Source: Catajapyx aquilonaris
Taxonomy: Eukaryota
Assembly (NCBI GenBank): GCA_000934665.2
Contig: KZ538188.1
Span: forward strand, 1-64,000
DNA: 64,000 nt
Reading direction: 5' to 3'
Shown here piece after piece: positions 22,704-62,332 of this stretch. A program made the position numbers and the translations under genes. The first letter of the stretch is position 1. Each line of letters opens with the position of its first letter. Below the pieces are notes generated by a model that saw only the letters and a program-made list of their open reading frames with translations, had not been told where the DNA came from and made no database searches.

Positions 22704-25700
22704 TCAAGGAAGAATATATTCAACCTTACAATCTTCAAGGGTTATTTCGTCACTTTCAGCCTGGCATATCCGCAAATGACCTACAAGAATGTGACGTGTC
22801 TTGAATACCTTACCACACCAATTGCATTCGTATTGTTTCTCATCTGATTGTTCGCATTTATGATTTTTCAAATTCGCAGGAGAAGTAAACCTTTTGAAAC
22901 AAATGCTGCACTCGGAAAAGCTCCCTTTTGCATGTGTCAACATATGTTTATGCAAATGATGAGGAGAAATGAAACCTTCACTGCATTCAGTGCATCTGTA
23001 TGGTCTCTCTCCTGTGCGATGTCGTAACATGTGACTTTCCAACTTCATCTTAGACAAAAGGACAAAATGGCAAATGGGACATTCATATTTCTTACTCTCG
23101 TAACCATGTAACCTTCGCATATGGCACAGTAGCTTTGATCTGTCAGCATATTTATGTGAACAATATGAGCAACTGTACGGCAATGTATGCTCATGAGTGT
23201 GATTAGTAAGATGCCTACGGGAAATGAAACCTTCGCAACATACAGTGCACCTGAAGGGTCTCTCCCCAGTGTGAAGTCGCATATGGATTTCAAACTTGAT
23301 CTTAGAATCGAACACAAGAAGGCAAACAGGACATTTATGTTCCTCATATCCACTTGTTTTGTAGCCATGAAACTTTCGTCTGTGACGAAATAGGTTCTGT
23401 CTGCTTGTACATTTATGTGAGCAATCAGGGCAACTGTACTTGGACATTTCTGCCCCATGATACCTTCTCATGTGATCCTGCAAATTGTGCGTACTAGCTA
23501 AGACTTTATGGCAGTGTTTGCAAGCACGCTGCTCCACGTCTACTTGATGCATGCTCCTTTCATGTCTTTTCAGACACATCGGCAGTTTGAATCCCTTTCC
23601 ACATTTATCACATAGGAAAGGAGTCTCATCAGAATGCATTGAAAGCTTGTGCTGCACCAATACTTTGCTTTCCTTGAAGCTCTTTGAACACTGGCTACAC
23701 TTGAATGGCTTCTCACCCGTGTGACGACGCTCATGTCTAGCAAGAGCAGATTTTCTAAGGCAAACTTTACCACAATATTTGCACACATGCAGTTTGCCAA
23801 CGTTATGGGCTCGCATCTTGTGCACACTCAAACGATATGAAGAATAGAATGTCTCGGAACATAGTTCGCAAGTGAACACCTTGTCATGAACATGGCATAA
23901 CCTTACATGATTAATGAGGCTAGTCTTGGACATCAGAATTTTGGAACAATACGGACAGCAGAAAGATACATTTGTGCTGCTGCTAGACTGGAGAGAATTT
24001 TTGCACGCATCAATAGTATGACCTCCAAGTAATTTACTGAGTGCTTCCTTCAAACCTTCCCTTTTATGTTCCTTCTGATGTCGTTTAAAACTGTAACAAG
24101 AACTGAAGGAATTATTGCACTTGTCACAATTGAAGGAGGGCTTGTCAACGGAGTGAACTGCCATATGTCTAGACAGCTTCCACTGGTCGCCAAATGATTT
24201 GCTGCACTGATCACAAGTTAATGACTTTTGACATGTCTGTGCCCGAACATGAATACTGAGATGGGCCCTGCTTGAAAATGCTTTCCCACACTGTTCACAC
24301 TTGAGAGGTTCCTCCTTGGCGTGCTCTTTCCTGTGAAGCTTTAAATCCTTCTGCTTGCTAAAGGTTTTCCCACAGTCAGCACAACATAGGGACTGTTGTT
24401 CTTCCTTCATCTTCCTTCGCAATGCAGGATTCTGGGGGGGGAGGGGGAAAATCAGAACAATCTGAACTACTGCAGCAGACTGTCACATATCCGAAGCAAT
24501 CAGTAATAATCACCCTAAATTTGTTGCGTCCAGGCTCCTGGTCCGAAGACTCTCCTTCAGAGTCCATCCACTCGCCATTGGAGTAACTGGCCCTGCCATC
24601 CTCCTGGTCAGTCATGTCCTTCAACTTCTGCAGGGCCTTCCTCTTGGACTGTCTCCCTCCTACAGCATGTGCCATGCTGGCCTGGAGTGGAAGTGGAAGT
24701 GGTTAAGAGTCATTACCATATGAGGATTGCGGTTATCACTTATCACACATTGCTTGGTAAATTGGTCCTCACCTTCTCATTCATTCCCAAGTGCTCTTCT
24801 CTTTCATGCTCCTCCAATGGAGAACGCTGAGAACTTTCACCCTCACCACCAGCTTGACCTGTTCCATCTCCAAGTATTTCATTGAGGGTTTCATTCAAAT
24901 CTTCCCCTGCATGCTTCTGATGATGATGTTTCAAAGCGTAAGGAGTCTTGAAGGACTTATCACACATGTCACACTTGAAGGGCCTGTCATCCGAGTGAAC
25001 TACCATGTGCATAAGTAGGTGCTGGTGATAATTAAATGATTTGCTGCACTGATCACAAGTTAATGCCTTGTGACATATCCGTGCCTGAACATGTCTACTG
25101 AGAAACCGCCTGCTTGAAAACACTCTCCCACAGTTTTCGCATTTGACAGATTCCTTCTTGGTGTGCTTTCCTCCGTGATGCTTTAAATGCTGAAGATTGC
25201 TAAATGTTTTCCCACAGTCAGCCGAGTCCAGCAACTGTTGCACTTCCTCCTCAACCTCCTTGCTTGGCAATGCACCATCCTGAAAAAAATATATATACAA
25301 ATAATATCAGCATATTCTGAGCATGAATACTATGATTGTGAGTGGCAAATTCTACTTTTTAAACCCTTGGTGCTGCCCTCCTCCACAGAGCAAAACTTTG
25401 ACGTCACGTTTGGATCATGTTTGGGTGGCTGTCTCTGCTACTTTCCCTCCTGACCCAACTGGATTGGAAAGAATGGTTCAGGTTGGTTCAGACAAGCGTC
25501 TGCCCAAACTTGACGTCAAAGTTGATCTACGCCTGTGCCATAGAAATATTCGAGCCTAGCGATGGTTTTTTAAAAGTGTAATCAGTATTTTATTAAATAT
25601 TTTAAGCATTGAAAAGCAGAATAGATTGCTTCAGGAGTCATTATTATCACACATGTTTGAAAAGTAGCCCTCCTATACTATTCATCCCTAAATGGGTTAC

Positions 25701-26786
25701 CCAAGATTGGGCCCAAATTCATTCCTAATCCCAGCCATGTTTTGTCAATTGATCCTCACCTTCTCCAGTTCATTGCTTCCTGAATGCTCTTCTCTCTCAT
25801 GCTCCTTCAATTCCCGCTTTGTCACAAACGGCTTGGAGCATTTTAGGCAAAATACAATGGGATCCGCCACAATCGAAAAATGCCTCAATTCTACCTGCAA
25901 TTTAAATTAAATTGTTAATTACTGAATAAAATCATGGGACCATTTCACTGCATCACAAAGTGGACTCACCCCTTCCTCAAAGTAGTGTGATGAAGAAATT
26001 TCATTTTTGACGACAAGAAACAGTTGATGTTGCTCCTAAAAAATGATGCTGTTAGTCTTATTGCATGGTTTAGGTTAAATTTTACATTTATGAGTATTAC
26101 AGCACATCCTTCAGCACTGTACCAGGTAAAGTGGACTCATTTTAGCCACGTGCAAGTGCTCCTCCATACATCACAAAAATTGATCCATACCATGGTGCAA
26201 TTTTCAATTCACCCACCATTGCTCTAAAGCCCTTTACTTACTGCAGGTGGTTCGTCCTTCACCTTGTCCTCTGACTGCGAGTTGAAACTCTGCAGTGGTG
26301 AATCCACTAGCGTCTGAAGTTCTTCCCTGTCAAGTGGTCCATCCCCAGGTTCAGTTGCCCCATCCTCATCCTCTTCACCTTTTATGCGGTGTGGCCACAG
26401 AGCTGGGCCTTCCTCCTGAAAACAATTCGAATAATTAGAGTCCATTATTACCACTCTGTTTTGCCTCCAATGCACAACTATGGTCAATCCAAGTGGGGGC
26501 CAACCTCCACTTTGATGTCCACCTCCAGTCCCCCTCCATCCTCCAGACCTTCTTCTTCCTCCTTCACTTGTACTGCGGTTCCCCCATCAACCTCTCCTGG
26601 TCCATGGCCAGGCTCATCCTTCTCTTTCTCCTTTTCCTTCTCTTCTGCATTCCTCCTGACCAGGTCCCACCTGCTGTGTGTGAAGCTGTGCACCAGGAGC
26701 TCCAGGTGCGTGGGGAATGTCTGGAGGCAGCAGCGACACTCGTGCAGGGTGCAGCTGGAGGTCGGATCCTCCTCCCGGGTGGACAT
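22704..26786 (-). CDS. Zinc-finger paralog A, 7 exons, about 1019 aa, apparently intact
   Basis: Exons 26786-26505, 26415-26242, 26035-25970, 25894-25760, 25279-24773, 24681-24514, 24431-22704; all phase 0 with GT-AG introns. Tandem C2H2 fingers with HTGEKPF/HTGERPF linkers in the last exon. Confidence 0.88.
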
Positions 26787-27287: not shown

Positions 27288-27994
27288 TCAAGTAACGGCA
27301 TTTTCCTCTTCATTTTCAACCTGGCATTTTCGCAAATGATGCACAAGATTCTTACGTGTCATGAGTACCTTACCACACTAGTTACATTCAAATTGGTTTT
27401 CATCTGATTATCCACATTTTATGATTGTTCAAATTAGCAGGAGAACTAAAACTCTTGGAGCATGTGCTGCACTTGCTAAAGTTTCCTTGTGCACCATGTG
27501 TTTATGCAAATGAGGTGAAATGAAACCTTTACCACATTCTGTGCACCAGAAGGGTCTCGCTCCTGTGTGACATCGCAAGTGAATGTCAAACCTTCTCCTA
27601 GATAAGAGTACATGATGGCAAATTGGAACATGTATATTTCGTATTCTTGCAACCATGTAACCTTCACATATGGTTCTGTAGATTTGATATGTTGGCACTT
27701 TTACGTGAACAATCTGGGCAACTATGTTGTGTCGTATGCAAAAGCATGTGTCTAGTAAGATGCTTATTGGGGGGAAAAAACCTTTTCCACATACAGAATG
27801 GTCTCTCTCCAGTGTGATGTCTCATATGAATTTCACACTTGATCTTAGAACAGAAGACAAGAAGGCAAACAAGACATTTACGTTCCTCACATCCACTTCT
27901 TTTGTAACCATGATATTTTTGTCTGTGATCAAGTAGAGGAGATCTGCTTGCACATTTATATGAGCAATCAGGGCAACTGAGCTGGGATAGATGT
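27288..27994 (-). pseudogene. Decayed terminal zinc-finger exon of paralog C
   Basis: Homologous to the 3' half of the family terminal exon (CPDCSYKCASR.., HTGERPF, HTGARPFWCTECGK) but broken across frames with stops; 5' half missing. Confidence 0.8.
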
Positions 27995-28923
27995 TTGTAG
28001 TTTATATATTCATGAGTATTTACGGTACCCACATTATATTTTTAATGGCATGACATCATAGGCTAAGGTCTTGCTCATTAAAAACAAACACTTACTGCAC
28101 GAATTTTAGTAGATGTATCTCCCTGCCGCATATTTCTGGGTACATGGTAGTGCAGTGGAAAATCATTTAAAATTCCCCGAAATTCTGCGATTTACTTTAC
28201 ATGCATGAAAAAATCTGAATGATCCATGAAGGGTGGGCAAATTCCCCCAGCGTCATAGTGGCCGTAAAGTGGCTTCGCTCCTAACTGTCCAGGCCAACTA
28301 CTCCGAGATCTAGGCAATGGCTGCTTGCCACCTGAGCCACCTTCTTTTGCACCTGGTGGATCACATTATCTCCTTTTAAACTGGCCCTTTAAAAAAATTA
28401 AAATAGGAGCTTAATGTTTTCATAATTCATTCAAGGTACTGGGCAATCATAAAGAGGGATGGAAGCCACCTACAAAAAATGTAAATGTCGCAATAGGATG
28501 ACGTCGCCATCTCGTGCATAGCATATAAGGCGGTTGATGCACTCTCTCGAAATACCGTGTAGGTTGGTAGGTCTTAGATGCTTCAGCCCCATCTTGTGCA
28601 TGAATCGAGAGCAAAACTAATGGTGCCAGATCCAGTGATTTACACCTAGGGCACTATTTTTAAACCACCCACCCAAAGAGTGCAGAATGGAGCAGTAAAC
28701 ATAGGGTTCAACAACGAACATTCACAAATCATAAGATATCTACTACAGGTATGATAAACCCTATCGTTGCATAACGAGCATATTCCAGAAGTGTCCAATC
28801 TTAAGCGAAAGAAGCAAAAACATTCCCTTCAGTCTGATGAAAAGAACTACTGCAGCCTTGACACACATCGGTTCTCAACAGACTGTTACATATCCGAAGA
28901 AATCAGTAATAATCACCCTAGGT

Positions 28924-29035
28924 CAAGGGGTTAGCAACTCCTCAAAAAAGTGTACACCAGATCCTGGAACCAGAAGGTTCCACCTGGTTCCTTGGCAAGT
29001 GTGTACACCGGTTCCAGGGAGTTGCTAACCTATTG
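28924..29035. mobile_element. hAT-type MITE with 8-bp TSD
   Basis: TIR CAAGGGGTTAGCAACTCC / GGAGTTGCTAACCTATTG; TSD CCCTAGGT at 28916-28923 and 29036-29043; single-copy empty site in the paralogous exon near 31515. Confidence 0.9.
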
Positions 29036-29141
29036 CCCTAGGTTTGTTGCATCAAGGCACCTCGTCTGAAGATTCTCCTTCGGTGTGCATCCACTCGTCA
29101 CTGGAGTATCTGGCCCTGCCATTCTCCTGGTCAATCACGTC

Positions 29142-32100
29142 CTACACCTTCTGCAGGGCCTTCCTCTTAGACTGTCTCCCTCCAACAGCAAGTGCCATGC
29201 TGGCCTGGAGTGGAAGGAAACACTGGTGTTAGTCACATTGTCAGCGGGTCACATTCACCATCACTGTGTTTCTATGTGTAAAACTAATTGGGCACACACC
29301 AAACAAGTGTTTACGCAGCAAGCAGTATCATTCAAACTCTGGATCGAATTTAGGATTCAAAGTCTGGAACGTTTAAAGTTAGAGTCGTTCAAAGTACGAG
29401 GTACCTAAGTAATAACATGAAGTGTTGCTAAGCCAGGAAAGGCCTGCAATCATCACTAATCACACCTTGCTTGGTAATTGGTCCTCACCTCATTAATTCC
29501 CAAGTGCTGTTCTTTTTCATGCTGCTTCAACAGAGAATGGAGAGAACTTTCACCCTCACCACCAGCTTGACCTATTCCATCTCCAAGTATTTCATTGAGT
29601 GTTTCATTCAAACTTCCATCTTTATGGTTCTTCTGATGATATTTCAAATAGTACGGAGACTTGAAGGACTTGGCGCACCTGTCGCACTTGAAGGCCTTGA
29701 CATCCGAGTGGACTCTCATATGTGTAAGAAGATGCGGGTGATAACTAAATGATTTGTTACACTGATCACAAGTTAATGACGTTTGGCATGTCTGTGCACG
29801 AACATGTCTAATGAAATTGATCCTCATTGAAAACACTCTCCCACAGTGTTCGCATGTATCGTCCTTCCATTTGTATGTATTGTCCTTCCGTTTGTATGTA
29901 TTGTCCTTCCGTTTGTATGTATTGTCCTTCCGTTTGCATGTATTCTTCTTCCGTTTGCATGTATTGTCCTTCTGATGATATTTCAAAGAGTAAGGAGACT
30001 TGAAGGATGTATTGCACCTGTCACACTTGAAGGGCCTGACATCAGAGTGAACTCTCATATGTCTAAGGAGGTGCAAGTGATGTCTGAATGATATGTTGCA
30101 TAGATCACAAGTTAATGGCTTTTGGCATGTCTGTGCACGAACATGTATATTTAAATTGAATTTTCTTGAAAATACTCTCCTACAGTGTTCGCATGTATGG
30201 TCCTTCTGTTCGCATGTTGGGTCCTTCTGATGATATTTCAAAGTCTTACGTTGCTTGAAGGACTTATTGCACCTGCCACACTTGAAGGGCCTGACATCAG
30301 AGTGAACTGTCATATGTGCACGGAGGTGCTTATGATTTCTGAATGATTTGTTGCATAGATCACAAGTCAATGACGTTTGGCATGTCTGTGCACGAACATG
30401 TCTAATGAAACTGATCCTCCTTGAAAACACTCTCCCACAGTGTTCGCATGTATTGTCCTTCTGTTTGCATGTATTGTCCTTCAGATGATATTTCAAAGTG
30501 TGAGGATATTTGAAGGACTTATTGCACCTGTCGCACTTGAAGGCCTTGACATCCGAGTGGACTCTCATATGTGTAAGAAGATGCGGGTGATAACTAAATG
30601 ATTTGTTACACTGATCACAAGTTAATGACATTTGGCATGTCTGTGCACGAACATGTCTAATGAAATTGATCCTCATTGAAAATACTCTCCCACAGTGTTC
30701 ACACTTGAGAGATTCATTGTTGGTGTGCTCTTTCCTGTGAAGTTTTAAATGTTTCAACTCGCTAAAGGTTTCCCCACAGTCAGCACAGGATAGTGATTGT
30801 TGTTCTTCCTCCCTGATCTTCTCCCTTGGCGATGCAGGATTCTGAAATTAAATAAAATCATATCAGGATATTTTCAGTAGGAATACTTCGATTGTGAGTG
30901 CCAGATTCTACTTTTTAAATAGCAGATATCATGGTTGTTCCACACACACTATAATGTGTTGAACGAAATTAATACTTGGAAAAAAATAAAAAGGACATGT
31001 CAGTATGAATTAATTAATTAATTAATAATTTTACTTACACACAATGCTATTTGCATTATTAGAAAAAAACTCCCACGACAGCTTACTATAAGATGATGTT
31101 GCACCATTGCAGTTTGTTAATTGCTAAGCAAAAAAAAATTGTACAATGCAAACAATATATTTTGCTGAAGGCATTTGGATTAGTCAAGTGTGAGATGCGT
31201 CTATTGGGACTTTTGGGAAACTCTACACAGCTTGGTTTCTAACTCGTTTAAACAACGAATATTCATAAATCATAAGATATCTAGTACTGGTGTTATAAAC
31301 ACTGTCTTTGCATGACGAGAATGTTTCAGCAATGGTTATGAAGCATTAAGAGCGAAAACACTCCATGCAAATTGTTTTAAAATGTTGTAAGACCTCTGTG
31401 GCAGAATAAAGGTACTGAAGCAAGCCAAGTGCATGTAAGACCTTCACCAAAGTGTGTCTGTGGACACTTTGGTTCCCAACACAGTCACGCATGCGTAGTA
31501 ATCAGTAATGATCACCCTAGGTTTGTTGCATCCAGGCTCCTGGTCCGAAGACTCTCCTTCAGAGTCCATCCACTCGTCATTGGAGTAACTGCTCCTGCCA
31601 TCCTCCTGGTCGCTTGTGTCCTGCAACTTCTCCAGGGCCTTCCTATTGGACTGTCTCCCTCCAACAGCAGGTGCCATGTTGGCCTGGAGTTGAAGGAAAC
31701 GCTGGTGTTAATCACAGTCTCAGCTGGTCACATTTACCATTGCATATCAGCATATTCTGAGTAGGAATACTATGATTGTGAGTGGCAAATTCGACGTTTT
31801 AAACACAGGATTTCATCACTGTCCCACAGAGAGACAATAATGCTTCTTGTTGACACGAGAGAAAATATCATCATGTGGTGTGGCTTTGACTGTTGCAGAG
31901 CTGGATGTACCGTGTGTGGTTATGAGGCTCACCAATATTATTATACAGTATAGTACATGGTGTACCAACGGAATAAAAATTTCATGATAGTCATCAAAGA
32001 TTTTTTATTTTTTTTTAATGCACGTGTAATAGGTGGGGAAGAGTCAATTATTAGTGAAATCCTCATTAACTGGCATTTACCTTTTCAGAATTCATGACTG

Positions 32101-34947: not shown

Positions 34948-35550
34948 TCAAGTAACGACATTTCCCTCTCCATTTTCAACCTGGCATAGCTGCAAATGAA
35001 GTGGAAGACCACTACGTGTCATGAGTACCTTACCACACCAATTACATTCATATTGCTTCTCATCCCAGTGTTCACATTTATGACTTTCCAAATTTGCAGA
35101 ACTAAAACTCTTGGAACAAAATAATGCTGCACTCGGAAAAGCTACCTTTTGCATGCGTCAACGTGTGTTTATGCCAATTATGAGGAGAAATAAAACCTTC
35201 ACTGCATTCAGTGCACCTGAAGGGTCTCTCTTGTGCGATGTAGTAACATGTGAATGTCAAACTTGCTCTTACATAAAATGGGACATTCATATTTCTTACT
35301 CTTGTAACCATGTAACGTTAGCATATGGCATTGTAGCTTTGATCTGTTGGCACTTTTATGCGAACATGTGGGCAACATACTGTGTCGTGAAGTATGCTCA
35401 TAAGTGTGTGTAGTAAGACGCTTATGGGAAATAAAACCTCTATTACATACAGTGCACCTGAAGGGTCTCTCCCCTGTGTGAAGTCGCATATTAATTACAA
35501 ACTTGCTCTCATAATCGAACACAAGAAGGCAAACAGGACATGTATGCTAC
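34948..35550 (-). pseudogene. Decayed finger-coding tail of paralog B beyond the new stop
   Basis: HTGERPFRCTVC, ERPFRCTECSEGFIS and YECNWCGKV fragments in three different frames plus an extra TAG. Confidence 0.8.
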
Positions 35551-45600: not shown

Positions 45601-45683
45601 TGTGTGAAGCTGTGCACCAGGAGCTCCAGGTGCGTGGGGAATGTCTGGAGGCAGCAGCGACACTCGTGCAGGCTAGGATCCAT
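42655..45683 (-). CDS. Zinc-finger paralog D, 5 exons, about 684 aa
   Basis: Exons 45683-45453, 45374-45201, 44997-44932, 44856-44728, 44109-42655; phase 0, GT-AG; one finger has lost a Cys (CSVRLL). Confidence 0.88.
44321..44400. mobile_element. 80-bp hairpin MITE, TA|CTATCGG ends
   Basis: CTATCGGCGCGGAAATGATACGGACACTTG / CAAGTGTCCGTACCATTTCCGTGCCGATAG. Confidence 0.8.
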
Positions 45684-49500: not shown

Positions 49501-51254
49501 ATCCCAGCCCAGGGTCTCCCCCCTTCAACTCATGCAGAGTTGGGTCGTCTCTGGCTTCGTCTCGGGTGGAATCTCCGCTAGATTAATCCACCCGGGGAGT
49601 TCACAAAATGTACCGTTTGAAACATTACACTGCATATTGCACATCCCCTACCAGTCATCCTGCCCGTGGGCCCGGGTGCTTCGTTCAAGGTTCCAGTGTG
49701 TATCGTACTACAACTGTATAAATAAAGGTCCATGCCACGTACCTCTTAAGATGGTCAAGCACTACCTCAATTATTATTATTATTACGTTGTTACTGATTC
49801 TTCCAGGGGAGATTTCTTAAGTACCGCGTTGCATAGTCGTGTAATATTTATATTATAGTTATAGTTGACTTCAGCTACAATAGCCTCGCCTATAACAGAC
49901 CTCAGTTACAACACACTTGTTCTGCTGTCACTTGAAGTCTGTTATATCCAGAGTCAACTTGATCTTGACAACATTTCATTGCATCAAATCACACTGCAAA
50001 CCAAAGTGTAACTCACCCCTTGCACCAAGTAGTATGATGAAGGACCTTCCTTTTTGATGGCGGAATAGAACGAATGTTGTGCCTATGAAAGAAAAAAAAT
50101 ATAATGTGCCAATAGCTTATAATTATGTACAGTAACACTTCTATAAGTCGAATCTCTATGGGACCGGGAAAAAACTTCGAGTTATAGAAGATTCGAGTTA
50201 CAGAAGTTTGGATTTTTTTAAAGCACAGAACTCTATAAGGAAGCCTACATTTGTATCCAGTGACGAAAGGTGTTCAAAACTTAAAAATAACTGTCACAAT
50301 CATACTTACAATGTTCCTCGTTGTTGTGTCATTAAAAAATCTCCGTTATGGACATTTGCCTACTCTTAGATTCGAGGATTCAATTGTCACAATGGAGTCA
50401 AACACTTCTTTAGGTACGTCTGATAGACGGAGATCAGGAAATTGAGCCTTTCTGTACATGTGGCCTACTCTCGACCCTTCGGCTGGGAAATGAGAAAATT
50501 TTCCGTACTCGCCAACATGAACTTGGACTTAAGGAGACTGAAAATGCATTGATATCCCATCGTATAAGGCCCTGCCTGCACTTCGAGTTATGGAGAACTT
50601 CAAGTTACAGAAATTCGAGTTAGGGAAGTTTATTTCCAATTACTTTACATTGCGACCAACCAAGCTCATCATTTTCTTCGACTTATAGAGAACTTCGACT
50701 TAGGGAAGTTCGACCATAATTTTCCATCCCTCCTTCCTCCTGCTCAAACCCAATATACTCACTGCAGGTGGTTCGTCCTTGTCCTCTTGTTCCGAGTTGC
50801 CACTCTCCTGTGGTGAATCCACAGGCGTTTCAAGGCTTCCCCTGTCAACATCACCAGCTTCATCGTCCGCTGCCCCATCCTGACCTCCTTCCCCTTTGAC
50901 GTGGTATGGCCACAGAGCTGGGCCTTCCTCCTGAAGACATAAAGAGTCCATTAATAGATAGGAACCATTCATGTCTCCTCCAATGCGCAACCATGCCAAG
51001 TGGGGGCCAACCTCCACTTTGATGTCCACCTCCAGTCCCTCTCCATCCTCCAGACCTTCCTCCTTCACTTGTACTGCAGTTCCATCAACCTCTCCTGGTC
51101 CATGGTCAGCCTCATCCTCTTTCTCCTTCTCTTCTGCATCTCTCTTGACCTGATCCCACCTGCTGTGAGTGAAGCTGTGCACCAGGAGCTCCTGATGTGT
51201 GGGGAATGTCTGGAGGCAGCAGCGACACTCGTGCAGGGCGCTGGTTGGATCCAT
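46517..51254 (-). CDS. Zinc-finger paralog E, 5 exons, shortened C-terminus
   Basis: Exons 51254-51012, 50930-50763, 50082-50017, 49410-49276, 47788-46517; the final finger degenerates (ISHQGRTVHMNLHHLPRSCPN*). Confidence 0.85.
47847..48568. mobile_element. TIR element containing a nested hairpin of about 165 bp (48135-48300)
   Basis: TGCATATCTGGGGAAACTAAATGGAAG / CTTGCATTTAGTTTGCCCAGATATGCA; inner GTGAGCGATTTGA .. TCAAATCGCTCAC. Confidence 0.65.
49440..49786 (+). mobile_element. tRNA-derived SINE
   Basis: A-box-like TGGCGCTGCAGT (49452), B-box GGTTCGATCCC (49495-49505), (TTA)n tail at 49770-49785; absent from the same intron position of the paralogs. Confidence 0.8.
50130..50716. mobile_element. 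pogo/Tigger-like non-autonomous element
   Basis: TA|CAGTAACACTTCTATAAGTCGAA start; repeated TTCGAGTTA/TTCGACTTA subterminal motifs; inverted TTCGACTTATAGAG near 50680. Confidence 0.65.
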
Positions 51255-51815: not shown

Positions 51816-54800
51816 TCAAGAAACAATGTTTTTTTCACCATTCTCAACCTGGCACACCTGGCGCAAATGACGTACAAGTACCGAACGATTCTTGAATACT
51901 TTACCGCACCAATTACATTCAAATTCCCGCTCATCTGATTGTCCACATTTATGACTTTTCAATTTTGCAAGAGAAGTAAAACTCTTGGAGCAAAGGTTGC
52001 ACTTGCAAGAGCTCCCTTGTGCATGTGTCAACATGTGTTTATGCAAATGAAGAAGAGAAATAAAACCTTTACTACATTCAGAGCACCCGAATGGTCTCTC
52101 TCCTGTGCGATGGCGTAACATGTGAGTGTGAAACATTCCCTTAGACAGGAGCACCGAATGACAAATGGAACATTTATATTCCTTACTCTCGTAACCATGT
52201 AACCTTTGCCTATGGAGTTGTAGAGATGATCTGTGGACACTTTTATGTGAACAATCTGGGCAACTGTGCAGTGAAGTGTGCACACGCATGTGTGTTCCAA
52301 GACGGGCACCGGAAATGAAACCTTTACCACATTCAGTGCACCTGAATGGTCTCTCTCCTGTGTGACGTCTCACATGAATATCAAACTCGCTCTTAGAAAA
52401 CAGCACTTCACTGCAAGTGGGGCATTTATGTTCCCTATGTCGCATGGTTTTGTAACCGTGAAACTTTCGTCTGTGACGAGTTAGAGTCGATGCACAAGGA
52501 CATTTATATGAGCAATCGGGGCAACTGTGCTTGGACATATCTCCCCCATGAGAAGTTCTCATATGATCCTGCAAACTGTATTTACTAGCCAAGACTTTAG
52601 GGCAGTGTTTGCAAGCATGCCGATTCTTGTCCTTGTGAGTTATTGAGCCACTTTCGTGTATTTTCATATGATTTTTCAGACCTTGCCCCAATTTGAACCC
52701 CTTTCCACATTTATCACACATGAAAGGAGTCTCATCAGAATGTGCCGCTAGATTGTGACGGCCCAGTGACTTTTTGCTACTCATACTCCTTGAACACAAG
52801 CTGCACTTGAATGGCTTCTCACCAGTGTGAGTACGCTCATGTTCAGCAAGTGAGTCCTTGCGAAGGCAAATTTTACTGCAATATTTGCAGGGGTACATTT
52901 TCACAATTTTATGGGCTCGCTTCTTGTGCACACTCAAATGTTGTGGATAATAAAATTTCTCAGAACATAGTTCACAAGCAAATGCAGGGTCGCTGATGTG
53001 GTATGATCTTACGTGTCTAATTAAACCATGACTGGTTGCCATAAATTTTTCACAAAGTGGACAGCGGAGGCATGCCTCTGCACTGCTACTAGAATGGAGA
53101 GAATTTGCACCTTCACCATAATTATCACCTATTCTATCTCCAAGCAATTTTTTGAGTGCTTCCTTCAAACCTTCCCCTGTATGGTCCTTCTGATGTTGTT
53201 TCAAATTGTCATGATTCTTGAAGGATTTATTGCACACACCACATTTGAATGGCCTGTCATCAGAGTGAACCGCCATATGCCTAGCTAGGTACCACCATTT
53301 AGTAAATGATTTGTTGCACTGATCACATGTTAATGACTTTTGACATGTCTGTGAATGAACATGAACACTGAGACCGTTCTTGTATGAAAATACTCTCCCA
53401 CAGTGTTCACACCGGTAAGATCCCTTCTGGGCATGCACTCTCCTGTGAAGCTTTAAACTCCTCATCTTAGTGAAGGCTTTCCCGCAGTCAGAACAAGCAA
53501 GTAACTGTTTCCCTTTCTTCTTCATCCTTTTTCTTGGCAATGCACGATCCTGAAAAAGATGGAAACAACATCAGGATATTGTCAGCATTTTTCACCTTTT
53601 CAGTCACAGAGTTTCATGGTTGTTCCACAGAGAGAGAAGAACATTTTGAAAGAAATCAACACTTGCAAAAATTTTAAAAAAAGACGAGTACAACAGCCAG
53701 CAAGTACAGGTTTTATAACATTGTAAGATTCATGCAAGAGAGGGTCGCAAACTGAAAATTGTGATGTTCCCATTTCTATATCTGTAGAACCTTCCCGCAA
53801 TGCACCACACAAAAAAACGATGGGCCCCTGCAGTGTGTTTGGACTCAACACATGTCGGTGGAATGTGCTAATGTTTTGACGTTTTCGTTCTTTGCATAAT
53901 TTTTCTTTTTGAATTTCAAATTTCAAGGAAATTGGTTAAATTTCATACCGTAACAGGGCTTCTGAAAGCAGCCTCTACCCATAATTTTAGTATTTTAAAA
54001 AAAGGGCAGGCAGGCCTTGCTGATGCAAATGGGCAGAATATATAGTGCTGTGAGTCATTATCAAACAAGCGTAAAAAGTAGGGTCTCCTATATTATTCGT
54101 GAATATTTGGTAACTCCTGATAAGCCTAAATTTCATTCCTTATCCAATCAATGCTAGATAATATCAATCCTCACCTTTTCCAGTTCATTTCTTCCCGTAT
54201 GCTCCTCTTTCTCATGCTCCTTCAATTCCTGCTTTGTCGCAAATGTCTTGGAGCATTTTGTGCAGAATATAATTCGATCGACGACAACAGAAAAGTGCCT
54301 CAATTCCACCTGAAATTTAAATTGCGATGTTATTTACTGCATGTCACTGCATCAACTGCAACCCAATGTCTGACTCACCCCCTGCACAAAGTAGTGTGAC
54401 GAAGGAATTTCCTTTTTGATGTCATGAGTCCGGAGGTGTTGCTCCTAAAAAAAGGGGGAGAAAGAAAGGTGGGTCATTCCATGTAAATTCAGTTAAATTT
54501 TCAGAAAATTTGTGGCTCGACCCCTTTCAATTAAAAAAAAATAATTAATGAGTATGTAGCCATGCAGAACTTAATTCCAACTCCAAAATTGTACACACCT
54601 GGAGTTATATTTCACCGAGATACAAGCATGACAATCTCAACAATGTACGCACACCGCCATATATTCCATTGTTAAACCATTACATTGTATTCCTACATGA
54701 TACATATCAAATGAAAGGTCATGAACAGGAGAATTTTATGGTGAAATAAAATTTCATCGAATGTTTTATTTGAAATTATAAACAAATGAAACACACAATC

Positions 54801-57358
54801 TCAATTTACTCTGTACCAGAAATAAGGGCGGTTGTGAATATCCGAAGTAGAGAGAGGTCGGCCTGGCCTTGCCATGTCCGACGTGCCTTGTCAACCACTG
54901 CGGAAATGGCGTACCCAGTCCTTCACTGTCGAGTACGCCACGTAAGTGTCTCCATACACAGCCCTCATGCGTGTATGAATCTCCTTCGGTCCCGCTCCCC
55001 CTGCACACAGGAACTGAATTACTGCCCGTTCGTCCGCCTTCGACGCGCCTGATATGGTGAATGGTAAATATGGTAAATGTGAGGTAAGACTTTGCAATAC
55101 CTCTATGCCTGATTTGACCTCACCGGACCTCGCATAGCATTAACCAGTATCAGATATAAGTTTCAAGGTATCATACAATCTAGCCTACACATACGAGAGA
55201 AGTTCTAATCAAATGTACCGTACATGATGCTATGAGTCGTGGGACTGGGTCGGTGGGCTCCATGGAGAGCGCCGGAAACGAGTAAAGGCCGCTTCACAAA
55301 CTCGGCAATGCGAAAGCGGGGCGAAATGCCCGTTTTACAAACCCGGATTTGCGCGAGCGGGGCGTGCGGAGAGCGGAAAATTTGCGCAGGGCTGTTCACA
55401 AATGCTGCGTGCGATGACCGAGCGCGGGCGTTGCGCTGGCATCCAATCGCGGGTGGACTTTTTGCGTGCGATGAGCGGAAGGCCCACACGCCACGATTTC
55501 GCAACACCGAGTTTGTGAAGCGGCCTTAAGTAATAAAATTCAAATCGGGATCATAAGCCTGGGGGGGAGAGAAATTTTTGCACTGGTGTGTGGCTCAGAT
55601 GTTCCTCTGCCCAGAAATAAATAGGTGTTCAATTATCTCGTGGTGTTTTTGAGAAAATTATTTCCTTCCAAACCATGTTTTGCGAAGTTGACAATGTTCA
55701 ACAATGGGTCCAGTGTTAACCTTTGACTTCAAAGCTTAACAAAGCTGATAAGTAGAGAGGGTATGAGTTGTACTCAAAGTCTACATGTTTCATTTGCCCA
55801 CAAATGTTTTTTTTTTTTTGCAAAGAAAAAAATTCGCGAAAACTGCTAAAATGTCGTAAAACAGCATTTTTGCCAATTTTTTGCGCGGTTGCTAATTATA
55901 CATTCGCAATTTATTTCATATCGAAAATTCAGACCTAGGTAGGCAGTTGCTCCATTCCAAATTTTGTTTTTCTGTAATGCATAGGAAAATTGGTACACGC
56001 GTCCAAAGTTGAGAAAAAATGAACTTGGAGAAATAGCAGATTTGGTACCCCAGCGGTTATGATTTTTTTTCATGGCAAATAAAAAATGACACTGGAAAAT
56101 AGCCAGTGTCATTCGCCATCATTTCCACAGAGGTACTTCGTGTAATTTTTCCGTAATAATCGGACACCAAGCCCTGACCAACTTTTCTGGATCTGGCCTG
56201 ATTTGAAATGGAACCACCCTGCAATTTTCATTCTAGCTACCTCTTGCTCAGACCCTATACAGGGTGGTCGGTAAATGGCGCACAAGCTTCAGGTAGCGAG
56301 ATTCGTTGTGAAAAACCAGTACATGGAAGTGAAGGTCATATTGCTCTACGAGGCCTGGTTAGGGCTCACGAGGCCTCCAAAGTTTGGGCCAAATCATGGC
56401 GTCACATCCGCCCGCGAAATTCAAACACTACCGTATCGCTACTGTCTGTGATTTCGTTGCCAGGGATTGCCATGTTGACATCCCCCACATCTCCACCCTA
56501 CAATGGAACCGTATAAACTCATATGGACGTTGCCAGGCATTGCCATACCTTCGTCGCCGCGTGCCTGGCAACGTCCATATGAGTTTATACGGTTCCATTG
56601 TAGGGTGGAAATGTGGGGGATGTCAACATGGCAATCCCTGGCAACGAAATCACAGACAGTAGCGATACGGTAGTGTTTGAATTTCGCGGGCGGATGTGAC
56701 GTCATGATTTGGCCCAAACTTTGGAGGCCTCGTGAGCCCTAACCAGGCCTCGTAGAGCAATATGACCTTCACTTCCATATACTGGTTTTTCACAACGGAT
56801 CTCGCTACCTGAAGCTTGTCCGCCATTTACCGACCACCCTGTATTTACTTACTGCAGGTGCTTCTACCATAACATTTTCTTCTGCCTCTGACTTGACACG
56901 CCGCAGTGGTGAATGGAATGTCGTTTCAAGGGCCTCCCTGCCAACAGGGCCATCTTCATTTGCCCCATCCCGACCTCCTCCCTCTCCTTTGACGTGGCAC
57001 GGCCACAGAGCTGGTCCTTCCTCCTGAAGAAGACAACAATTATTCGAATGATCAGAAGGGTGTCCATGGCCACCATTTCCAATGCCCCCAATCCCCCTCC
57101 CCAAACAACCCATGCCAAGTGGGGGCCAACCTCCACTTTGATGTCCATCTCCAGTCCTCCTCCTTCTTCCTCCTTCACCTGGCCACCATCTCCTGGTCCG
57201 TCCTCTTCCTCTTCTGCGTTCCTCCTGACCAGGTCCCACCTGCTGTGGGTGAAGCTGTGCACCAGGAGCTCCAGGTGCGTGGGGAATGTCTGGAGGCAGC
57301 AGCGACACTCGTGCAGGGCGCTGGAGGTCGGACCCTCCTCCTCCTCCCGAGTGGACAT
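51816..57358 (-). CDS. Zinc-finger paralog F, 5 exons, apparently intact
   Basis: Exons 57358-57131, 57023-56853, 54444-54379, 54309-54175, 53549-51816; phase 0, GT-AG. Confidence 0.88.
54845..55050 (-). pseudogene. Mariner transposase N-terminal HTH fragment
   Basis: ERAVIQFLCAGGAGPKEIHTRMRAVYGDTYVAYSTVKDWVRHFRSG*..DMARPGRP resembles the mariner N-terminal DNA-binding region; in-frame stop, truncated. Confidence 0.85.
55286..55526. mobile_element. PIF/Harbinger-type MITE, GC-rich
   Basis: TAA|AGGCCGCTTCACAAACTCGG ... CCGAGTTTGTGAAGCGGCCT|TAA. Confidence 0.88.
56260..56841. mobile_element. 582-bp near-perfect fold-back Tc1/mariner-type element
   Basis: TA|CAGGGTGGTCGG..CCGACCACCCTG|TA; 280-bp arms (56260-56539, 56562-56841), 22-nt loop, about five mismatches. 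Confidence 0.93.
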
Positions 57359-57777: not shown

Positions 57778-57830
57778 CCTGCCAACAGATGGCGAGAGTG
57801 GTGCGGGTGGTGGCCGCCATCTCGTGACAA
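57778..57830. promoter_or_regulatory. Same CTCF-like motif pair upstream of paralog F
   Basis: CCAACAGATGGCG on + and CACGAGATGGCGG on -. Confidence 0.5.
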
Positions 57831-58229
57831 ATTCGGTAACTACTCAGATATGTGGCTGGACATTTTTTGAAACTCTGGCGGCAAATCTTTACTATTTACT
57901 TTATTATTATTATTCAGTAAAAATACAACACAATAACTTCGAACCCGTCATTTTTACATGAGACTCGAAGAGACATGATCAACTGGAGCCACTAAACTTG
58001 AGTCAAAAATGTGACATAAAAAAAAATGGGTCCGACATCAAAACGTGACATTTACAGTACGCCATGTATCGTGGGTGCTTGGAAATGTCATATTCTCCCA
58101 CCATGAAAACATGCTGCATACGCTGGAGTAAATCCATCGGTTTTTCTGCCCTTCCCCTGTTGCGTTGGTATGTTGGACCTAACCAAGCTCTGAACTACTC
58201 CGAACCCGCTCCAGAACCAGGTTCAACTG

Positions 58230-58320
58230 ATAACGAAATGATTTGTTGCATATATCACAAGTGAAGGACATTTGACATGCCTGTGCACGAACATGATTGG
58301 TGAGACAGCCCCTGTTTGTA
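58230..58320 (-). pseudogene. Orphan zinc-finger exon fragment
   Basis: Matches the family segment encoding HVRAQ.CQ.S.TCD.CNKSF; isolated, about 90 bp. Confidence 0.6.
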
Positions 58321-59233: not shown

Positions 59234-62200
59234 TCAAGAGACAATGTTTTTTTCACCATTTTCAACCTGGCATTTGCGCAAATGACGTACAAGAACCGAA
59301 CGATTCTTGAATACTTTGCAACACCAATTACATTGAAATTGCCGCTCATCTGATTGTCCACATTGATGACTTTCCAATTTTGCAAGAGAAGTAAAACTCT
59401 TGGAGCAAATGTTGCACTTGCAAAAGCTCCCTTGCGCATGTGTCAACATGTGTTTATGCAAATGAAGATGAGAAATAAAACCTTTGCCACATTTAGTGCA
59501 CCTGAATGGTCTCTCTCCTGTGTGACGTCTCATATGAATTTCAAACTTGCTCTTGGAAAGTAGCACTTGATTACAAATAGAGCATTTATATTCCCCATAT
59601 CTTCTTGTTTTGTAACCATGATACATTTGTCTGTGACGAAATAGAGCCATTCGGCTGGGACATTTATATGAGCAATCAGGGCAACTGAACTGGGACATGT
59701 CTGCCCCATGAAAACTTCTCATGTGATCCTGCAAACCCTTATTACTAGCTAAGACTTTATGGCACTGTTTGCAAGGATGCTGCCCCCTGGTTTTGCAACG
59801 TATGCCACTTTCGTGTGCTTTCATGTGATATTTCAGATCTTGCCTCAGTTTGAATCCCTTTCCACATTTATCACAAATGAAACGAGTCACATCAGAATGT
59901 AGCAATTGTTCGTGGCGCTGCATCGACACTTTAAAACTGAAGCTCTTTGAACAGAAACTACACTTGTATGGCTTCTCACCTGTGTGACTCCGCTCATGTG
60001 TAATAAGTGTAGATTTGTAAAGGCACTCTTTACCACAATATTTGCACAGGTACTTTTCCCCAACATTATGGGCGCTCCTCTTGTGCACAAGCAAGTGATG
60101 CCCAGATTTAAATTCTTCAGAACATAAATTGCAAGCATACGACTTGTCATGGGCATGGTAAATCTTTACATGGTTAATTAAACCCCTCCTGGATGCCAGA
60201 TTTTTTTCACAAAACGGACAGCCGAGCGGTGCATCTGTACTGCTGCTACATTGGAGGGAATTTTCATTTTCACCAATAGTATCACCCATTCCATCTCCAA
60301 GTATTTCATTGAGTGCTTCCTTCACACCTTCCCGTGTATGGACCTTCTGATGATACTTCAAATTGTAAGGAGACTTGAAGGACTTATTGCACCTGTCACA
60401 ATTGAAGGAGGGCCTGTCATCCGAGTGAACAACCATGTGATTTGACAGGTACTTGTGAGAAAGAAATAATTTGTTGCACTGATAACAAGTTAATGATGTT
60501 TGACATGTCTGTGCACGAACATGTCTAATGAAATTGATCCTCCTTGAAAATACTCTCCCGCAGTGTTCACACTTGAGAGATTCCTCCTTGGCGTGCTCTT
60601 TCCTGTGATCCCGTAAATGCTTCACCTTGCAAGAGATTTTTCCGGGGTCAGGACAAGCTAGTAACTGTACCTCTTTCCTCTTGACTTCCCTGCTTGGCGA
60701 TGTACGATCCTGAAAAAGATGTAAATCATATCAGGATAATTTCAGAATATTACATGTTTTCAACCCAAGATTATGTGTTTGTTCCACTGACAACCAAAGT
60801 AATTCTTTTTACCCTCCTAAATTTTGAAATTTTTTGAAAAATTTTGGATTTTCCAATTCTGCTTGCCCTATAGTGTTTTGCAAACATCACCTCTCCTGCT
60901 ATTTGTCACGTTAGCAGGGTCAAAATAACAAACCAAAAGGCGATATTCCGAAGCCACAACACGTGCACCCGGTCGCTTGTTGCATGTCCACCGGTCCCGG
61001 CTGACCGGTCGCAAGTTGTCACGACTGATATCAGTGATATGTAAATGATTGATTAAACTTGATTCATAAATTGCTACATTAAATTGATTTCGAAGCATGT
61101 GAGGTGATATTCTACTCATTCGCGCCACCCTAGAGCAAGCTACAGTCTGGGCGATTGGGACCTGGGACCGGCTGCTAGTGTTGTGGCTTCGGAATATCGC
61201 CTTTTGCCTTGTATTTTGACGTGAAAATTAGCAGCAGAGGTGATGTTTGCACAACACTATATAGGCCAAGCAACAACAACAACAACAACATCACGACATT
61301 TCCCTATGAAGGGTAGTTTAGCAGAATTAGAAAATCCAAAAATTTACCAAATTTGGGAGGGCAAGAAGAGTTACTTTGGTTGCGAGTGACACGAATGTTT
61401 TCAAGAAAATCAACACTCTTTTAAAATAAAAATGACCAGTATCATCACCAGTAGTAGGTGTTGCAGGAATGTGGCAAAGTTTCGATTTTCTGTTAATTTG
61501 CCTTTTTTTGTAAAAAAGTCTTCATTTTTAAGACAATTTTGATAGGGCAAGTTAATGTAAAATGGAGCTTCTTAAAACAGCCTTACTGTAGTTTTAGCAC
61601 TGGGGAATGAAAAGCAGTCGCTGTTGGTGCAAAAGAGCAGAATATATCATGGTTATGAGTCATTACTAGAGTCGGTTCAAAAACTATCCCAAAAAATAGG
61701 CATGAAAAGTTGCAAAAAGGCAGAATAGGCAAAATAGTTTCCAAAACCACGAAATAGGCAATTTTAGGCACTATAAAAACCTGCATTTTCCACATCCTGC
61801 ACTTATGAAACAGTTAGATCTCTTCACAAAACCATCCAAACTGCAAAGGAACTAATTAGGCATTTGCCTAAAAATCTGGACTCTTAGTCATTACCTACCA
61901 AGTTTGAAAAGTGTAGGAGCTCCTGGATTATTCATCCCCACTAATAATAATAAGAAGAAGTCGTAACCTGGGACGTTGACCAAGGATAGGCCCAAACGCA
62001 TTCCTAATCATAAGCCATGCTTGGTAAATTGGTTCTCACCTCGTCCAGTTCATTTCCTCCCGTATGCTCTTCTCTCTCATGCTCCTTCAATTCCTCCTTT
62101 GTCAAAAATGGCTCGGAGCATTTTGGGCAGAACACAACGGGACCCACCACAATCGAAAAGTGCCTCAGTTCTACCTGCAATTTAAATTACGTTGTAAATT

Positions 62201-62332
62201 AATTGCGTAATATCATGGCACCATTTCCCAGCATCCAATCACATTGTAACTCAATGGCTTACTCACCCCTTGCACAAAGTAGTGTGATGAAGTAATTGCC
62301 ATTTTGATGGCAGGATAGGGAAGATGTTGCTC
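59234..62332 (-). CDS. Zinc-finger paralog G, exons 3-5 (exons 1-2 presumably beyond the window end)
   Basis: Exons 62332-62267, 62174-62040, 60709-59234; 3' flank 58925-59233 closely resembles the 3' flank of F (51520-51815). Confidence 0.85.
60785..61388. mobile_element. CACT-ended element with long imperfect inverted arms
   Basis: CAACCAAAGTAA/TTACTTTGGTTG, AAACATCACCTCT/AGAGGTGATGTTT and AAAAGGCGATATTCCGAAGCCACAACAC/GTGTTGTGGCTTCGGAATATCGCCTTTT pairs. Confidence 0.8.

What the first reader, a model, noticed from the sequence alone, without database searches (positions are those of the whole stretch)
22704..62332. Tandem zinc-finger family with an invariant, unrecognised N-terminal module: a possible KRAB/ZAD analogue
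Seen: seven co-oriented paralogs. Five begin with LHECRCCLQTFPTHLELLVHSFTHSRWDLVRRNAEE, an isolated atypical finger plus a conserved SRWDLV extension; it is identical in A, B, D and F and differs at a few residues in E. Homologous recognition helices differ in every copy: for the first H-x5-C finger, SSRAHLSIH (A), SHKGNLGIH (B), SSRGFLSMH (D), TDRGHLSRH (E), SYKNGLSVH (F), SRRINFIRH (G). Known: a constant effector domain on fast-evolving finger arrays in clusters defines tetrapod KRAB-ZNFs and insect ZAD-ZNFs. Inference: this may be a lineage-specific effector domain, possibly for transposon repression. I do not recognise it as KRAB, SCAN, BTB or ZAD.
Basis: partly seen in the sequence, partly recalled or inferred. 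Interest (0 to 1): 0.82.

Follow-up and report, generated by a model that had tools for sequence, protein, structure and literature searches.

The report
Arthropod zinc-finger cluster, shared finger head
This is a tandem cluster of arthropod zinc-finger genes whose DNA-reading residues differ between copies while a shared N-terminal head stays constant; that head is an ordinary-type zinc finger, and copying between the gene copies accounts for much of its sameness.

Summary
Five minus-strand copies of the 36-residue string exist: identical in A, B, D and F, with four changes in E. All six quoted helix strings are correct.

The interpretation needs three corrections.
1. The module is not atypical. 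It has classical C-x2-C-x12-H-x3-H spacing, and the SRWDLV extension is predicted to continue the finger helix.
3. The invariance extends to the DNA. A, B, D and F show 0-2 synonymous differences where about 7 are expected. GC3 is 0.83-0.89, against 0.39-0.45 in the arrays. The flanks are recombinant mosaics. This indicates short-tract, GC-biased gene conversion on top of purifying selection (omega about 0.2 against E).

Base-contact positions do carry excess change: 2.1-fold, omega about 1.6. No KRAB, SCAN, BTB or ZAD match was found, and no relative turned up in the protein searches. The flanking cadherin-87A gene shows the host is a poorly sampled arthropod. Effector function is untested, and no transcript data were available.

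The parts
26505..26786 (-). Unit A exon 1: ATG, lone C2H2 finger (core 26643-26750), acidic tail ending ..DIKVE, donor GAG|GTTGGC
26242..26415 (-). Unit A exon 2: acidic linker, EEGPALWP..DEPPA; phase 0 at both ends
25760..25894 (-). Unit A exon X: second lone C2H2 finger (C-x2-C-x12-H-x4-H)
24773..25279 (-). Unit A short array exon: one degenerate and three intact fingers, a linker, and a tail like that of exon X with an AAG|GTGAGG donor
24514..24681 (-). Unit A 'exon 3' (MAHAVGGRQSKRK..). Both ends are phase 0, and it carries both a good acceptor and an ATG, so it could be an internal exon or an alternative first exon
22704..24431 (-). Array A: 575 codons, 17 fingers, no stop
27307..29216 (-). 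Degenerate unit: exon-3-like piece (about 29216-28878) plus broken remnants of a long array (about 28041-27307)
29489..30841 (-). Array C: 13 fingers, an internal 255-nt tandem repeat, a tail like that of exon X with a donor. Preceded by exon 3 at 31683-31516; no exon 1 found
41736..41969 (-). Unit B exon 1 (core 41820-41927)
41473..41646 (-). Unit B exon 2
40991..41125 (-). Unit B exon X
38297..38803 (-). Unit B short array exon (94% identical in DNA to that of A)
37155..37319 (-). Unit B exon 3
34971..36738 (-). Array B: open for 395 codons (to 35554). It then changes frame twice relative to A, near 35585 and 35230
45453..45683 (-). Unit D exon 1 (core 45567-45674)
45201..45374 (-). Unit D exon 2
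44728..44856 (-). Unit D exon X
42655..44109 (-). Array D: 484 codons, 13 fingers
51012..51254 (-). Unit E exon 1 (core 51132-51239). This is the one diverged copy: 4 residue changes and 5 synonymous changes
50763..50930 (-). Unit E exon 2
49276..49410 (-). Unit E exon X
46517..47788 (-). Array E: 423 codons, 13 fingers, shorter at the 3' end than the others
57131..57358 (-). Unit F exon 1 (core 57212-57319)
56853..57023 (-). Unit F exon 2
54175..54309 (-). Unit F exon X. It is reached across a 2.5-kb intron that carries repeat insertions
51816..53549 (-). Array F: 577 codons, 17 fingers
62040..62174 (-). Unit G exon X. Exons 1 and 2 were not found in the 1.8 kb of window upstream of it
59234..60709 (-). 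Array G: 491 codons, 13 fingers

Best explanation
The region holds a tandem, co-oriented cluster of a lineage-specific arthropod family of poly-C2H2 zinc-finger genes.

Gene structure. A full unit reads:
- exon 1: a lone classical C2H2 finger whose helix is predicted to run on through SRWDLVRRNAEE, followed by a disordered acidic tail;
- exon 2: an acidic linker;
- exon X: a second lone classical finger;
- one large exon with 13-17 fingers.

What is shown. The arrays diversify at their base-contacting positions while the N-terminal head stays constant. The near-perfect identity of the 36-residue core in A, B, D and F is concerted evolution. Repeated short-tract, GC-biased gene conversion among paralogs is layered on protein-level purifying selection. 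Copy E has escaped conversion and is drifting toward A/T.

What is inferred. The head most likely serves as a constant protein-interaction and regulatory platform on variable DNA-binding arrays. The exon-1 finger presents hydrophobic residues (T, L, E, V at helix positions -1, 2, 3, 6) that are unsuited to base reading. The acidic tail and linker carry 3-4 conserved psi-K-x-E/D sites, the SUMO-acceptor consensus. The proposed mechanism is therefore SUMO-dependent or finger-mediated recruitment of a co-regulator, probably a repressor, or self-association.
For: Structure of the family
- Five exon-1 copies.
- Self-comparison defines a repeating unit of exon 1, exon 2, exon X and array, with GT..AG boundaries and phase-0 junctions in every copy.

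Finger identity
- Canonical ligand spacing.
- PDB sequence matches to ZNF268 (E 0.015) and SALL3 (E 0.018) fingers.
- Atlas neighbours are C2H2 clusters.
- AF2 gives one helix over residues 18-44 at pLDDT about 70-82 and a disordered tail.
- Exon X is a confident beta-beta-alpha finger (pLDDT 74; PDB profile hit to HKR3 fingers, 1.7e-9).

Gene conversion
- Core pS is 0-0.08 among A, B, D and F, against mean pS of 0.26-0.32 in the exon-1 tail, exon 2, exon X and the arrays.
- P(<=1 synonymous difference on 24 sites at pS 0.30) = 0.002; P(<=2 events on four lineages) = 7e-5.
- The sliding-identity profile peaks at 94-100% over the core, against 30-75% around it.
- Mosaic flanks: B is 93-96% like F upstream and in the exon-1 tail, but 89-93% like A from intron 1 onward. 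The A tail is 94% like D.
- Core GC3 is 0.83-0.89 and GC4 0.79-0.87, against array GC3 0.39-0.45 and GC4 0.29-0.36. In E the core GC3 is 0.72, with 4 of 5 synonymous changes going G/C to A/T.

Purifying selection
- E against the others gives omega 0.15-0.24, Fisher P 0.006-0.034.
- Zn ligands in the arrays have pN 0.016 against pS 0.56.

Diversifying arrays
- Contact positions have pN 0.439 against 0.205 elsewhere (ratio 2.14, bootstrap 1.76-2.65).
- Omega is 1.59 (1.24-2.05).
- Only 6 of 2000 random four-position sets reach the observed value.

SUMO-type sites
- 3-4 psi-K-x-[ED] sites per head, against about 0.5 in shuffles (1-15 of 2000 shuffles reach the observed count). Two of them are fixed in position in all five copies.
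Against: - No transcript evidence. No RNA run was listed, so exon joins, start codons, and the one-gene or two-gene status of A and B are inferred from paralog conservation alone.
- The exon-1 donor is weak (GTTGGC).
- The exon-1 finger does not reach Pfam's C2H2 threshold (best E 0.92, in 1 of 5 copies).
- AF2 confidence is modest (mean pLDDT 59.9) and no beta-hairpin is called.
- Selection on the core rests on a single diverged copy (E) and about 10 substitutions.
- The pairwise counts among 5-6 paralogs are not independent, and conversion itself distorts dS.
- psi-K-x-E sites arise easily in K/E-rich sequence, and the five copies are related, so their enrichment counts as one observation.
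- No binding, repression or DNA-target data exist.
Confidence: 0.55

Rival explanations
1. The exon-1 finger is simply one more nucleic-acid-binding finger of the protein, like exon X. It is separated from the array by introns and acidic linkers, and has no dedicated effector role. Its sameness is a by-product of gene conversion in a GC-rich patch.
For: - Both lone fingers have classical spacing. Exon X even ends in an HTGG linker-like motif.
- Conversion signals are strong.
- No named effector domain is found.
Against: - Helix positions -1, 2, 3 and 6 of the exon-1 finger are T, L, E and V, with no typical base-contacting side chain (read from the sequence).
- The finger sits about 150 residues and two acidic stretches away from the array.
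- E still shows omega about 0.2.
- The core is identical even between copies whose flanks are only 43-78% alike.
Confidence: 0.22
2. The module is a true autonomous effector or oligomerisation domain: a functional analogue of KRAB, ZAD or FiNZ. Strong protein-level selection is the main reason for its constancy.
For: - Constant head on diversifying arrays in a tandem cluster.
- No match to known effector domains.
- A long amphipathic helix is predicted.
- The acidic, Glu-rich composition resembles what Wells et al. 2023 describe for FiNZ and KRAB (PMC10547256, passages read).
Against: - Protein-level selection does not explain the identical synonymous sites or the GC3 spike.
- Only five copies in one window were seen.
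- No relative was found elsewhere.
- There is no functional test.
Confidence: 0.15
3. The 108-nt block is conserved for a nucleotide-level reason, not for its protein product. Examples would be a shared small-RNA target or a regulatory DNA or RNA element in the first coding exon that co-regulates the family.
For: - Synonymous sites are invariant in four copies.
- A second 95% island covers the exon-1 3' end and the first 16 intron bases.
Against: - The RNA fold is no more stable than shuffles (z +0.49; 130 of 200 shuffles fold at least as well).
- E has changed 10-11 of the 108 bases and still keeps an open frame.
- The mosaic and GC3 patterns are what conversion predicts.
Confidence: 0.05
4. 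The cluster is mostly decaying duplicates, and the open frames reflect recent duplication only.
For: - Array B has two frame changes.
- One unit is fragmented (27.3-29.2 kb).
- Array E is shortened.
Against: - Paralogs differ by pS about 0.32, yet Zn ligands show pN 0.016.
- Six long arrays of 395-577 codons carry no stop.
- Splice sites and phases are kept in all units.
Confidence: 0.03

Closest known systems
ZAD-C2H2 zinc-finger genes of arthropods
   Same: - Same phylum.
- An N-terminal zinc-binding module on tandem C2H2 arrays.
- Clustered, lineage-specific expansion (background from the abstracts of PMC7913770 and PMC10547256, seen in the search listing and the passages).
   Different: - ZAD binds zinc through four cysteines (C-x2-C ... 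C-x2-C; recalled) and forms homodimers.
- Here the ligands are C2H2 in classical finger spacing.
- No zf-AD (PF07776) match was listed at E<=1.
- Dimerisation was not testable here.
KRAB zinc-finger gene clusters of tetrapods
   Same: - Constant N-terminal exons and one large array exon.
- Tandem clusters.
- Excess non-synonymous change at positions -1, 2, 3 and 6.
   Different: - No KRAB match.
- The host is an arthropod.
- The head is built from fingers and acidic linkers.
- The cofactor is unknown.
FiNZ zinc-finger genes of cyprinid fish (Wells et al. 2023, PMC10547256; passages read)
   Same: - A short, Glu-rich N-terminal sequence with no similarity to known domains.
- It is encoded on its own exon upstream of the array exon.
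- Large tandem family under positive selection.
   Different: - FiNZ is a 28-residue non-finger motif confined to cyprinids.
- Here the core is a zinc finger and the host is an arthropod.
- No FiNZ sequence was on hand, so no direct comparison was made.
Protein-binding lone C2H2/C2HC fingers (N-terminal finger of BCL11A, Ikaros-family C-terminal fingers; recalled, not tested)
   Same: A single finger set apart from the DNA-binding array, with side chains unsuited to base contacts. In those proteins it is used for self-association.
   Different: - No sequence relationship was shown.
- The analogy is functional and rests on recall plus the residue pattern.

Membership tests
Classical C2H2 zinc finger (exon-1 core) | Ligand spacing C-x2-4-C-x12-H-x3-5-H | tested here: met
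   C-x2-C-x12-H-x3-H in all 5 copies.
Classical C2H2 zinc finger (exon-1 core) | Conserved hydrophobic core: an aromatic residue 4 positions after the second Cys and Leu 10 positions after it | tested here: met
   F and L sit at those positions in all 5 copies (read from the alignment).
Classical C2H2 zinc finger (exon-1 core) | Profile match (Pfam PF00096 / PF13894) | tested here: inconclusive
   - Only 1 of 5 copies lists zf-C2H2_4, at E 0.92 and 10.8 bits against a cut-off of 27.
- The PDB phmmer search gives ZNF268 finger E 0.015 and SALL3 E 0.018.
Classical C2H2 zinc finger (exon-1 core) | Beta-beta-alpha fold | tested here: inconclusive
   - AF2 gives a helix at residues 18-44 and calls no hairpin; mean pLDDT 59.9.
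- Foldseek found 0 matches.
- VIA-align best Z was 3.3.
Classical C2H2 zinc finger (exon X) | Ligand spacing, profile match and fold | tested here: met
   - C-x2-C-x12-H-x4-H in 6 of 6 copies.
- Pfam E 5e-4 to 6e-4, below the whole-protein cut-off.
- PDB profile hit to HKR3 fingers, 1.7e-9.
- AF2 gives beta-beta-alpha, pLDDT 74.
ZAD (zf-AD, PF07776) | Four zinc-binding cysteines in two C-x2-C pairs about 50 residues apart; Pfam match | tested here: not met
   - Exon 1 has three Cys, all within four residues, plus His ligands.
- No PF07776 row at E<=1 for the 5 exon-1 frames.
KRAB (PF01352), SCAN, BTB | Pfam profile match in the N-terminal exons | tested here: not met
   None is listed at E<=1 for the exon 1, exon 2 and exon 3 frames, or at E<=0.1 for exon X.
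FiNZ | Similarity to the 28-residue cyprinid FiNZ consensus | not tested
- The host here is an arthropod.
- Only the Glu-rich composition is shared.
KZNF-like evolutionary mode (tandem family, constant head, adaptive fingers) | Excess non-synonymous change at base-contact positions relative to the rest of the finger | tested here: met
   Ratio 2.14 (1.76-2.65) and omega 1.59 (1.24-2.05), from 14 aligned fingers in 6 paralogs.
KZNF-like evolutionary mode (tandem family, constant head, adaptive fingers) | Repression of transposable elements | not testable with these tools
   No genome, expression or binding data were held for this organism.

The most novel reading that the evidence does not exclude
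The lone finger with its helix extension, together with the acidic SUMO-site tail, is a previously undescribed zinc-finger-associated effector or self-association module of a poorly sampled arthropod lineage. It would be a C2H2-based counterpart of ZAD, KRAB and FiNZ. It would be kept uniform across the family by gene conversion so that all members plug into one cofactor, while their arrays chase changing targets such as transposons.
Probability: 0.25. Interest if true: 0.65.

Novelty: new variant of a known kind. Interest (0 to 1): 0.42.

Why it matters
Fast-evolving zinc-finger families with a constant head are known from tetrapods (KRAB), insects (ZAD) and cyprinids (FiNZ). How widespread this design is in other animals, and how the head is kept uniform, remain open questions.

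This cluster offers a compact arthropod example in which the head is built from ordinary fingers. The constancy here can be traced to a sharply bounded, GC-biased conversion tract of about 108 nt. If the head proves to recruit a cofactor, it would add an independent origin of the "constant effector, variable reader" design.

The cluster also carries a caution for sequence-only reading. Perfect amino-acid identity among tandem paralogs can reflect concerted evolution and need not mean exceptional functional constraint.

Tried and rejected
- Whole-genome search: no genome is held for this window.
- Expression: no RNA holder was listed for 42600-45800.
- Relatives of exon 1:
  - The search for homologous proteins with 'longer' lengths scored 27 candidates, none at E<=0.01.
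  - The exhaustive phmmer search over 1.84 billion representatives gave 2 hits at E<=0.001. One is a repeat protein with no aligned stretch and was discarded as compositional. The other is a reedfish ZFP2-like protein that matches only as a generic finger.
  - The metagenome scan gave 88 pattern matches, none confirmed.
  - Earlier-findings look-ups returned nothing.
- Relatives of the array: the best hits to residues 1-200 of array D are 24-40% identical generic zinc-finger proteins. A BLASTP of exons 1, 2, X and 3 against those 24 proteins found only generic finger matches, none in their N-terminal regions before the first finger.
- Fold searches with the exon-1 model: Foldseek against the PDB gave 0 matches. 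VIA-align wide gave a best Z of 3.3, all single helices.
- RNA structure in the core: z +0.49.
- Early working idea that the host was a fish: dropped after the flanking gene proved to be cadherin-87A.
Full report
WHAT IS THERE

The window is eukaryotic. No genome is held for it. The plus-strand gene at about 7.3-13.4 kb is an ortholog of cadherin-87A. A 315-residue exon is 54-69% identical to the listed crustacean, insect and chelicerate proteins (the best 120 of 1204 hits), and nothing closer was found. The host is therefore an arthropod from a lineage that is poorly represented in the protein collection.

From 22.7 to 62.3 kb the minus strand carries a co-oriented series of C2H2 zinc-finger coding stretches.

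CHECK OF THE OBSERVATION

- The residues from LHECRCC to NAE are identical in A, B, D and F. E has four replacements.
- The six quoted recognition-helix strings of the first H-x5-C finger are all correct.
- The finger is not atypical. Its spacing is C-x2-C-x12-H-x3-H, with the usual Phe and Leu core positions.

ANATOMY

- Exon 1: ATG, 4-14 residues, the finger, then an acidic tail ending in DIKVE.
- A short intron of 78-107 nt follows.
- Exon 2: EEGPALWP..., acidic, ending in PPA.
- A third small exon, here called exon X. It encodes a second lone finger (C-x2-C-x12-H-x4-H) and is present in six units, including G at 62174-62040.
- One large array exon follows.
- All junctions have GT..AG and phase 0 in every copy.
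- Units D, E and F have exactly this structure.
- In A and B, exon X is followed by a short array exon with one degenerate and three intact fingers. Its tail and donor derive from exon X. Next comes a further small exon ("exon 3", MAHAVGGRQSKRK...) and only then the long array.
- Exon 3 has both a good acceptor and an ATG. A and B may therefore each be one long gene or two genes.
- C follows an exon 3 and has no exon 1.
- A broken unit lies at 27.3-29.2 kb.
- The B long array changes frame twice relative to A.
- None of this could be checked against transcripts. No RNA run was listed.

IDENTITY OF THE N-TERMINAL MODULE

- Pfam lists no KRAB, SCAN, BTB or ZAD at E<=1 for the exon 1, 2 and 3 frames. 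The only finger row is zf-C2H2_4 at E 0.92, in one of five copies.
- Against PDB sequences, exon 1 matches single fingers of ZNF268 (E 0.015) and SALL3 (E 0.018).
- Its language-model neighbours are C2H2 clusters.
- AF2 on the five-sequence alignment gives a single helix from residue 18 to 44. The finger helix thus runs on through SRWDLVRRNAEEKEKE, at pLDDT about 70-82, with a disordered acidic tail. Mean pLDDT is 59.9.
- Fold searches with this small model gave nothing useful.
- Exon X is a confident classical finger: AF2 pLDDT 74 with beta-beta-alpha, and a PDB profile hit to HKR3 fingers at 1.7e-9.
- No relative of exon 1 was found (details under Tried and rejected).
- The array itself has no close relative either; the best hits are 24-40% identical.
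- Because the nearest annotated species is distant, these blanks show only that the family is not in sampled lineages.

WHY THE CORE IS INVARIANT

The DNA alignment shows that the 108-nt core is identical in A, B, D and F apart from two synonymous changes and the first codon. Sequence on either side diverges at once. Sliding identity is 94-100% over the core and 30-75% around it, with a second 95% island at the exon-1 3' end and donor.

Nei-Gojobori counts, mean values:

| Region | pS | pN |
|---|---|---|
| Core, among A, B, D, F (range) | 0-0.08 | 0-0.024 |
| Exon-1 tail | 0.32 | 0.05 |
| Exon 2 | 0.31 | 0.20 |
| Exon X | 0.26 | 0.11 |
| Arrays | 0.32 | 0.22 |

At pS 0.30, one or fewer synonymous differences on 24 sites has P = 0.002. 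Two or fewer events on four lineages has P = 7e-5.

Three further signs point to gene conversion:

1. The flanks are mosaics. B is 93% like F upstream and 96% like F in the exon-1 tail, but 89-93% like A from intron 1 onward. The A tail is 94% like D, although its upstream region is only 44% like D.
2. Core GC3 is 0.83-0.89 and fourfold-site GC is 0.79-0.87. The arrays have GC3 0.39-0.45 and fourfold GC 0.29-0.36; the other head exons have GC3 0.40-0.57.
3. E, the one copy that differs, has GC3 0.72. Four of its five synonymous changes run G/C to A/T. This is what is expected once a copy drops out of GC-biased conversion.

An RNA-structure explanation is not supported (z +0.49).

Protein-level constraint is still visible. 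E against the others gives omega 0.15-0.24, with Fisher P 0.006-0.034. The core is identical even between copies whose flanks are 43-78% alike. The best reading is concerted evolution on a constrained segment, where conserved residues keep the homology that seeds further conversion.

THE ARRAYS

The six long arrays align position for position at 59-73% identity. Results over 14 aligned fingers:

| Site class | pN | Other measures |
|---|---|---|
| Zn ligands | 0.016 | pS 0.56 |
| Contact positions -1, 2, 3, 6 | 0.439 | omega 1.59 on pooled dS (bootstrap 1.24-2.05) |
| Other non-ligand in-finger positions | 0.205 | contact/other ratio 2.14 (bootstrap 1.76-2.65) |

Only 6 of 2000 random four-position sets reach the observed contact pN. 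The caveats are that pairs among six paralogs are not independent and that pS at the contact codons themselves is 0.41.

HOW IT PROBABLY WORKS

Shown: a constant three-exon head on diversifying arrays, in a tandem family that exchanges sequence.

Inferred:
- The exon-1 finger has T, L, E and V at helix positions -1, 2, 3 and 6, and a hydrophobic stripe (L, L/V, F, W, L/V) along a long helix. This suits protein contact and is poorly suited to base reading.
- The acidic tail and linker hold 3-4 psi-K-x-[ED] sites per head, against about 0.5 in shuffles. VKEE and IKVE are fixed in all five copies. This motif is the SUMO-acceptor consensus (established knowledge, recalled).
- I therefore favour a constant protein-interaction and regulatory head that recruits a co-regulator or self-associates. 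A homodimer prediction could not be run.

COMPARISON WITH KNOWN SYSTEMS

The evolutionary mode matches KRAB, ZAD and FiNZ families (PMC10547256, passages read; PMC11603059, passages read; PMC7913770, abstract in the search listing). The Parhyale genome paper reports 699 C2H2 genes in an amphipod, which shows that large expansions occur in crustaceans (PMC5111886, passage read).

Membership in KRAB, SCAN, BTB or ZAD is not met. FiNZ could not be compared directly. Three literature searches surfaced no description of a finger-based head of this kind. These were keyword searches, not sequence searches, so this is weak evidence of absence.

VERDICT

The "unrecognised domain" is an ordinary-type finger within a larger shared head. 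Its perfection owes much to gene conversion. The effector role remains a reasonable but untested idea.

Noticed in passing
window 7340-13436 (+): Exons of a cadherin-87A ortholog. A 315-residue exon is 54-69% identical to the listed arthropod proteins, which places the window in an arthropod that lacks close annotated relatives.
   Followed up: partly
window 56257-56844: A 283-nt inverted repeat, 98% complementary, with a 22-nt spacer. It lies in intron 2 of unit F and ends 9 nt from the exon-2 donor. It looks like a foldback or MITE-type insertion.
   Followed up: no
window 54891-55139 (-): A fragment with a Mos1-type transposase HTH_48 domain (E 3e-8), inside the enlarged 2.5-kb intron of unit F. 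A 39-nt inverted repeat pair lies nearby at 55285-55527.
   Followed up: no
window 24514-24681, 37155-37319, 31516-31683, about 28878-29216 (-): Four copies of a small acidic exon (MAHAVGGRQSKRK...EWMDSEGESSD...). It is found only upstream of arrays A, B and C and of the broken unit. Pfam finds no match. It could be an alternative first exon or an internal cassette.
   Followed up: partly
window 24773-25279 and 38297-38803 (-): Two short array exons, 94% identical in DNA. Their 3' ends, including the donor, derive from exon X. This points to an old unequal exchange between exon X and the linker of an array exon.
   Followed up: partly
window 29489-30841 (-): Array C contains an internal tandem repeat with a 255-nt period (copies 83-94% identical), which multiplies a block of fingers.
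   Followed up: no
window 34971-35585 (-): The 3' third of array B is still 65-81% identical to A at protein level but lies in two other frames. The cause could be a decaying gene or assembly errors.
   Followed up: partly
window 32213-32560 (-): An isolated open frame with one C2H2 finger (Pfam E 1.4e-4) between units B and C. It resembles the exon X finger in pattern and may be a diverged head exon for unit C.
   Followed up: no
window 1022-1072: A run of 51 N, probably an assembly gap.
   Followed up: no
window 58188-58412 (-): A short finger-coding fragment between exon 1 of unit F and array G.
   Followed up: no
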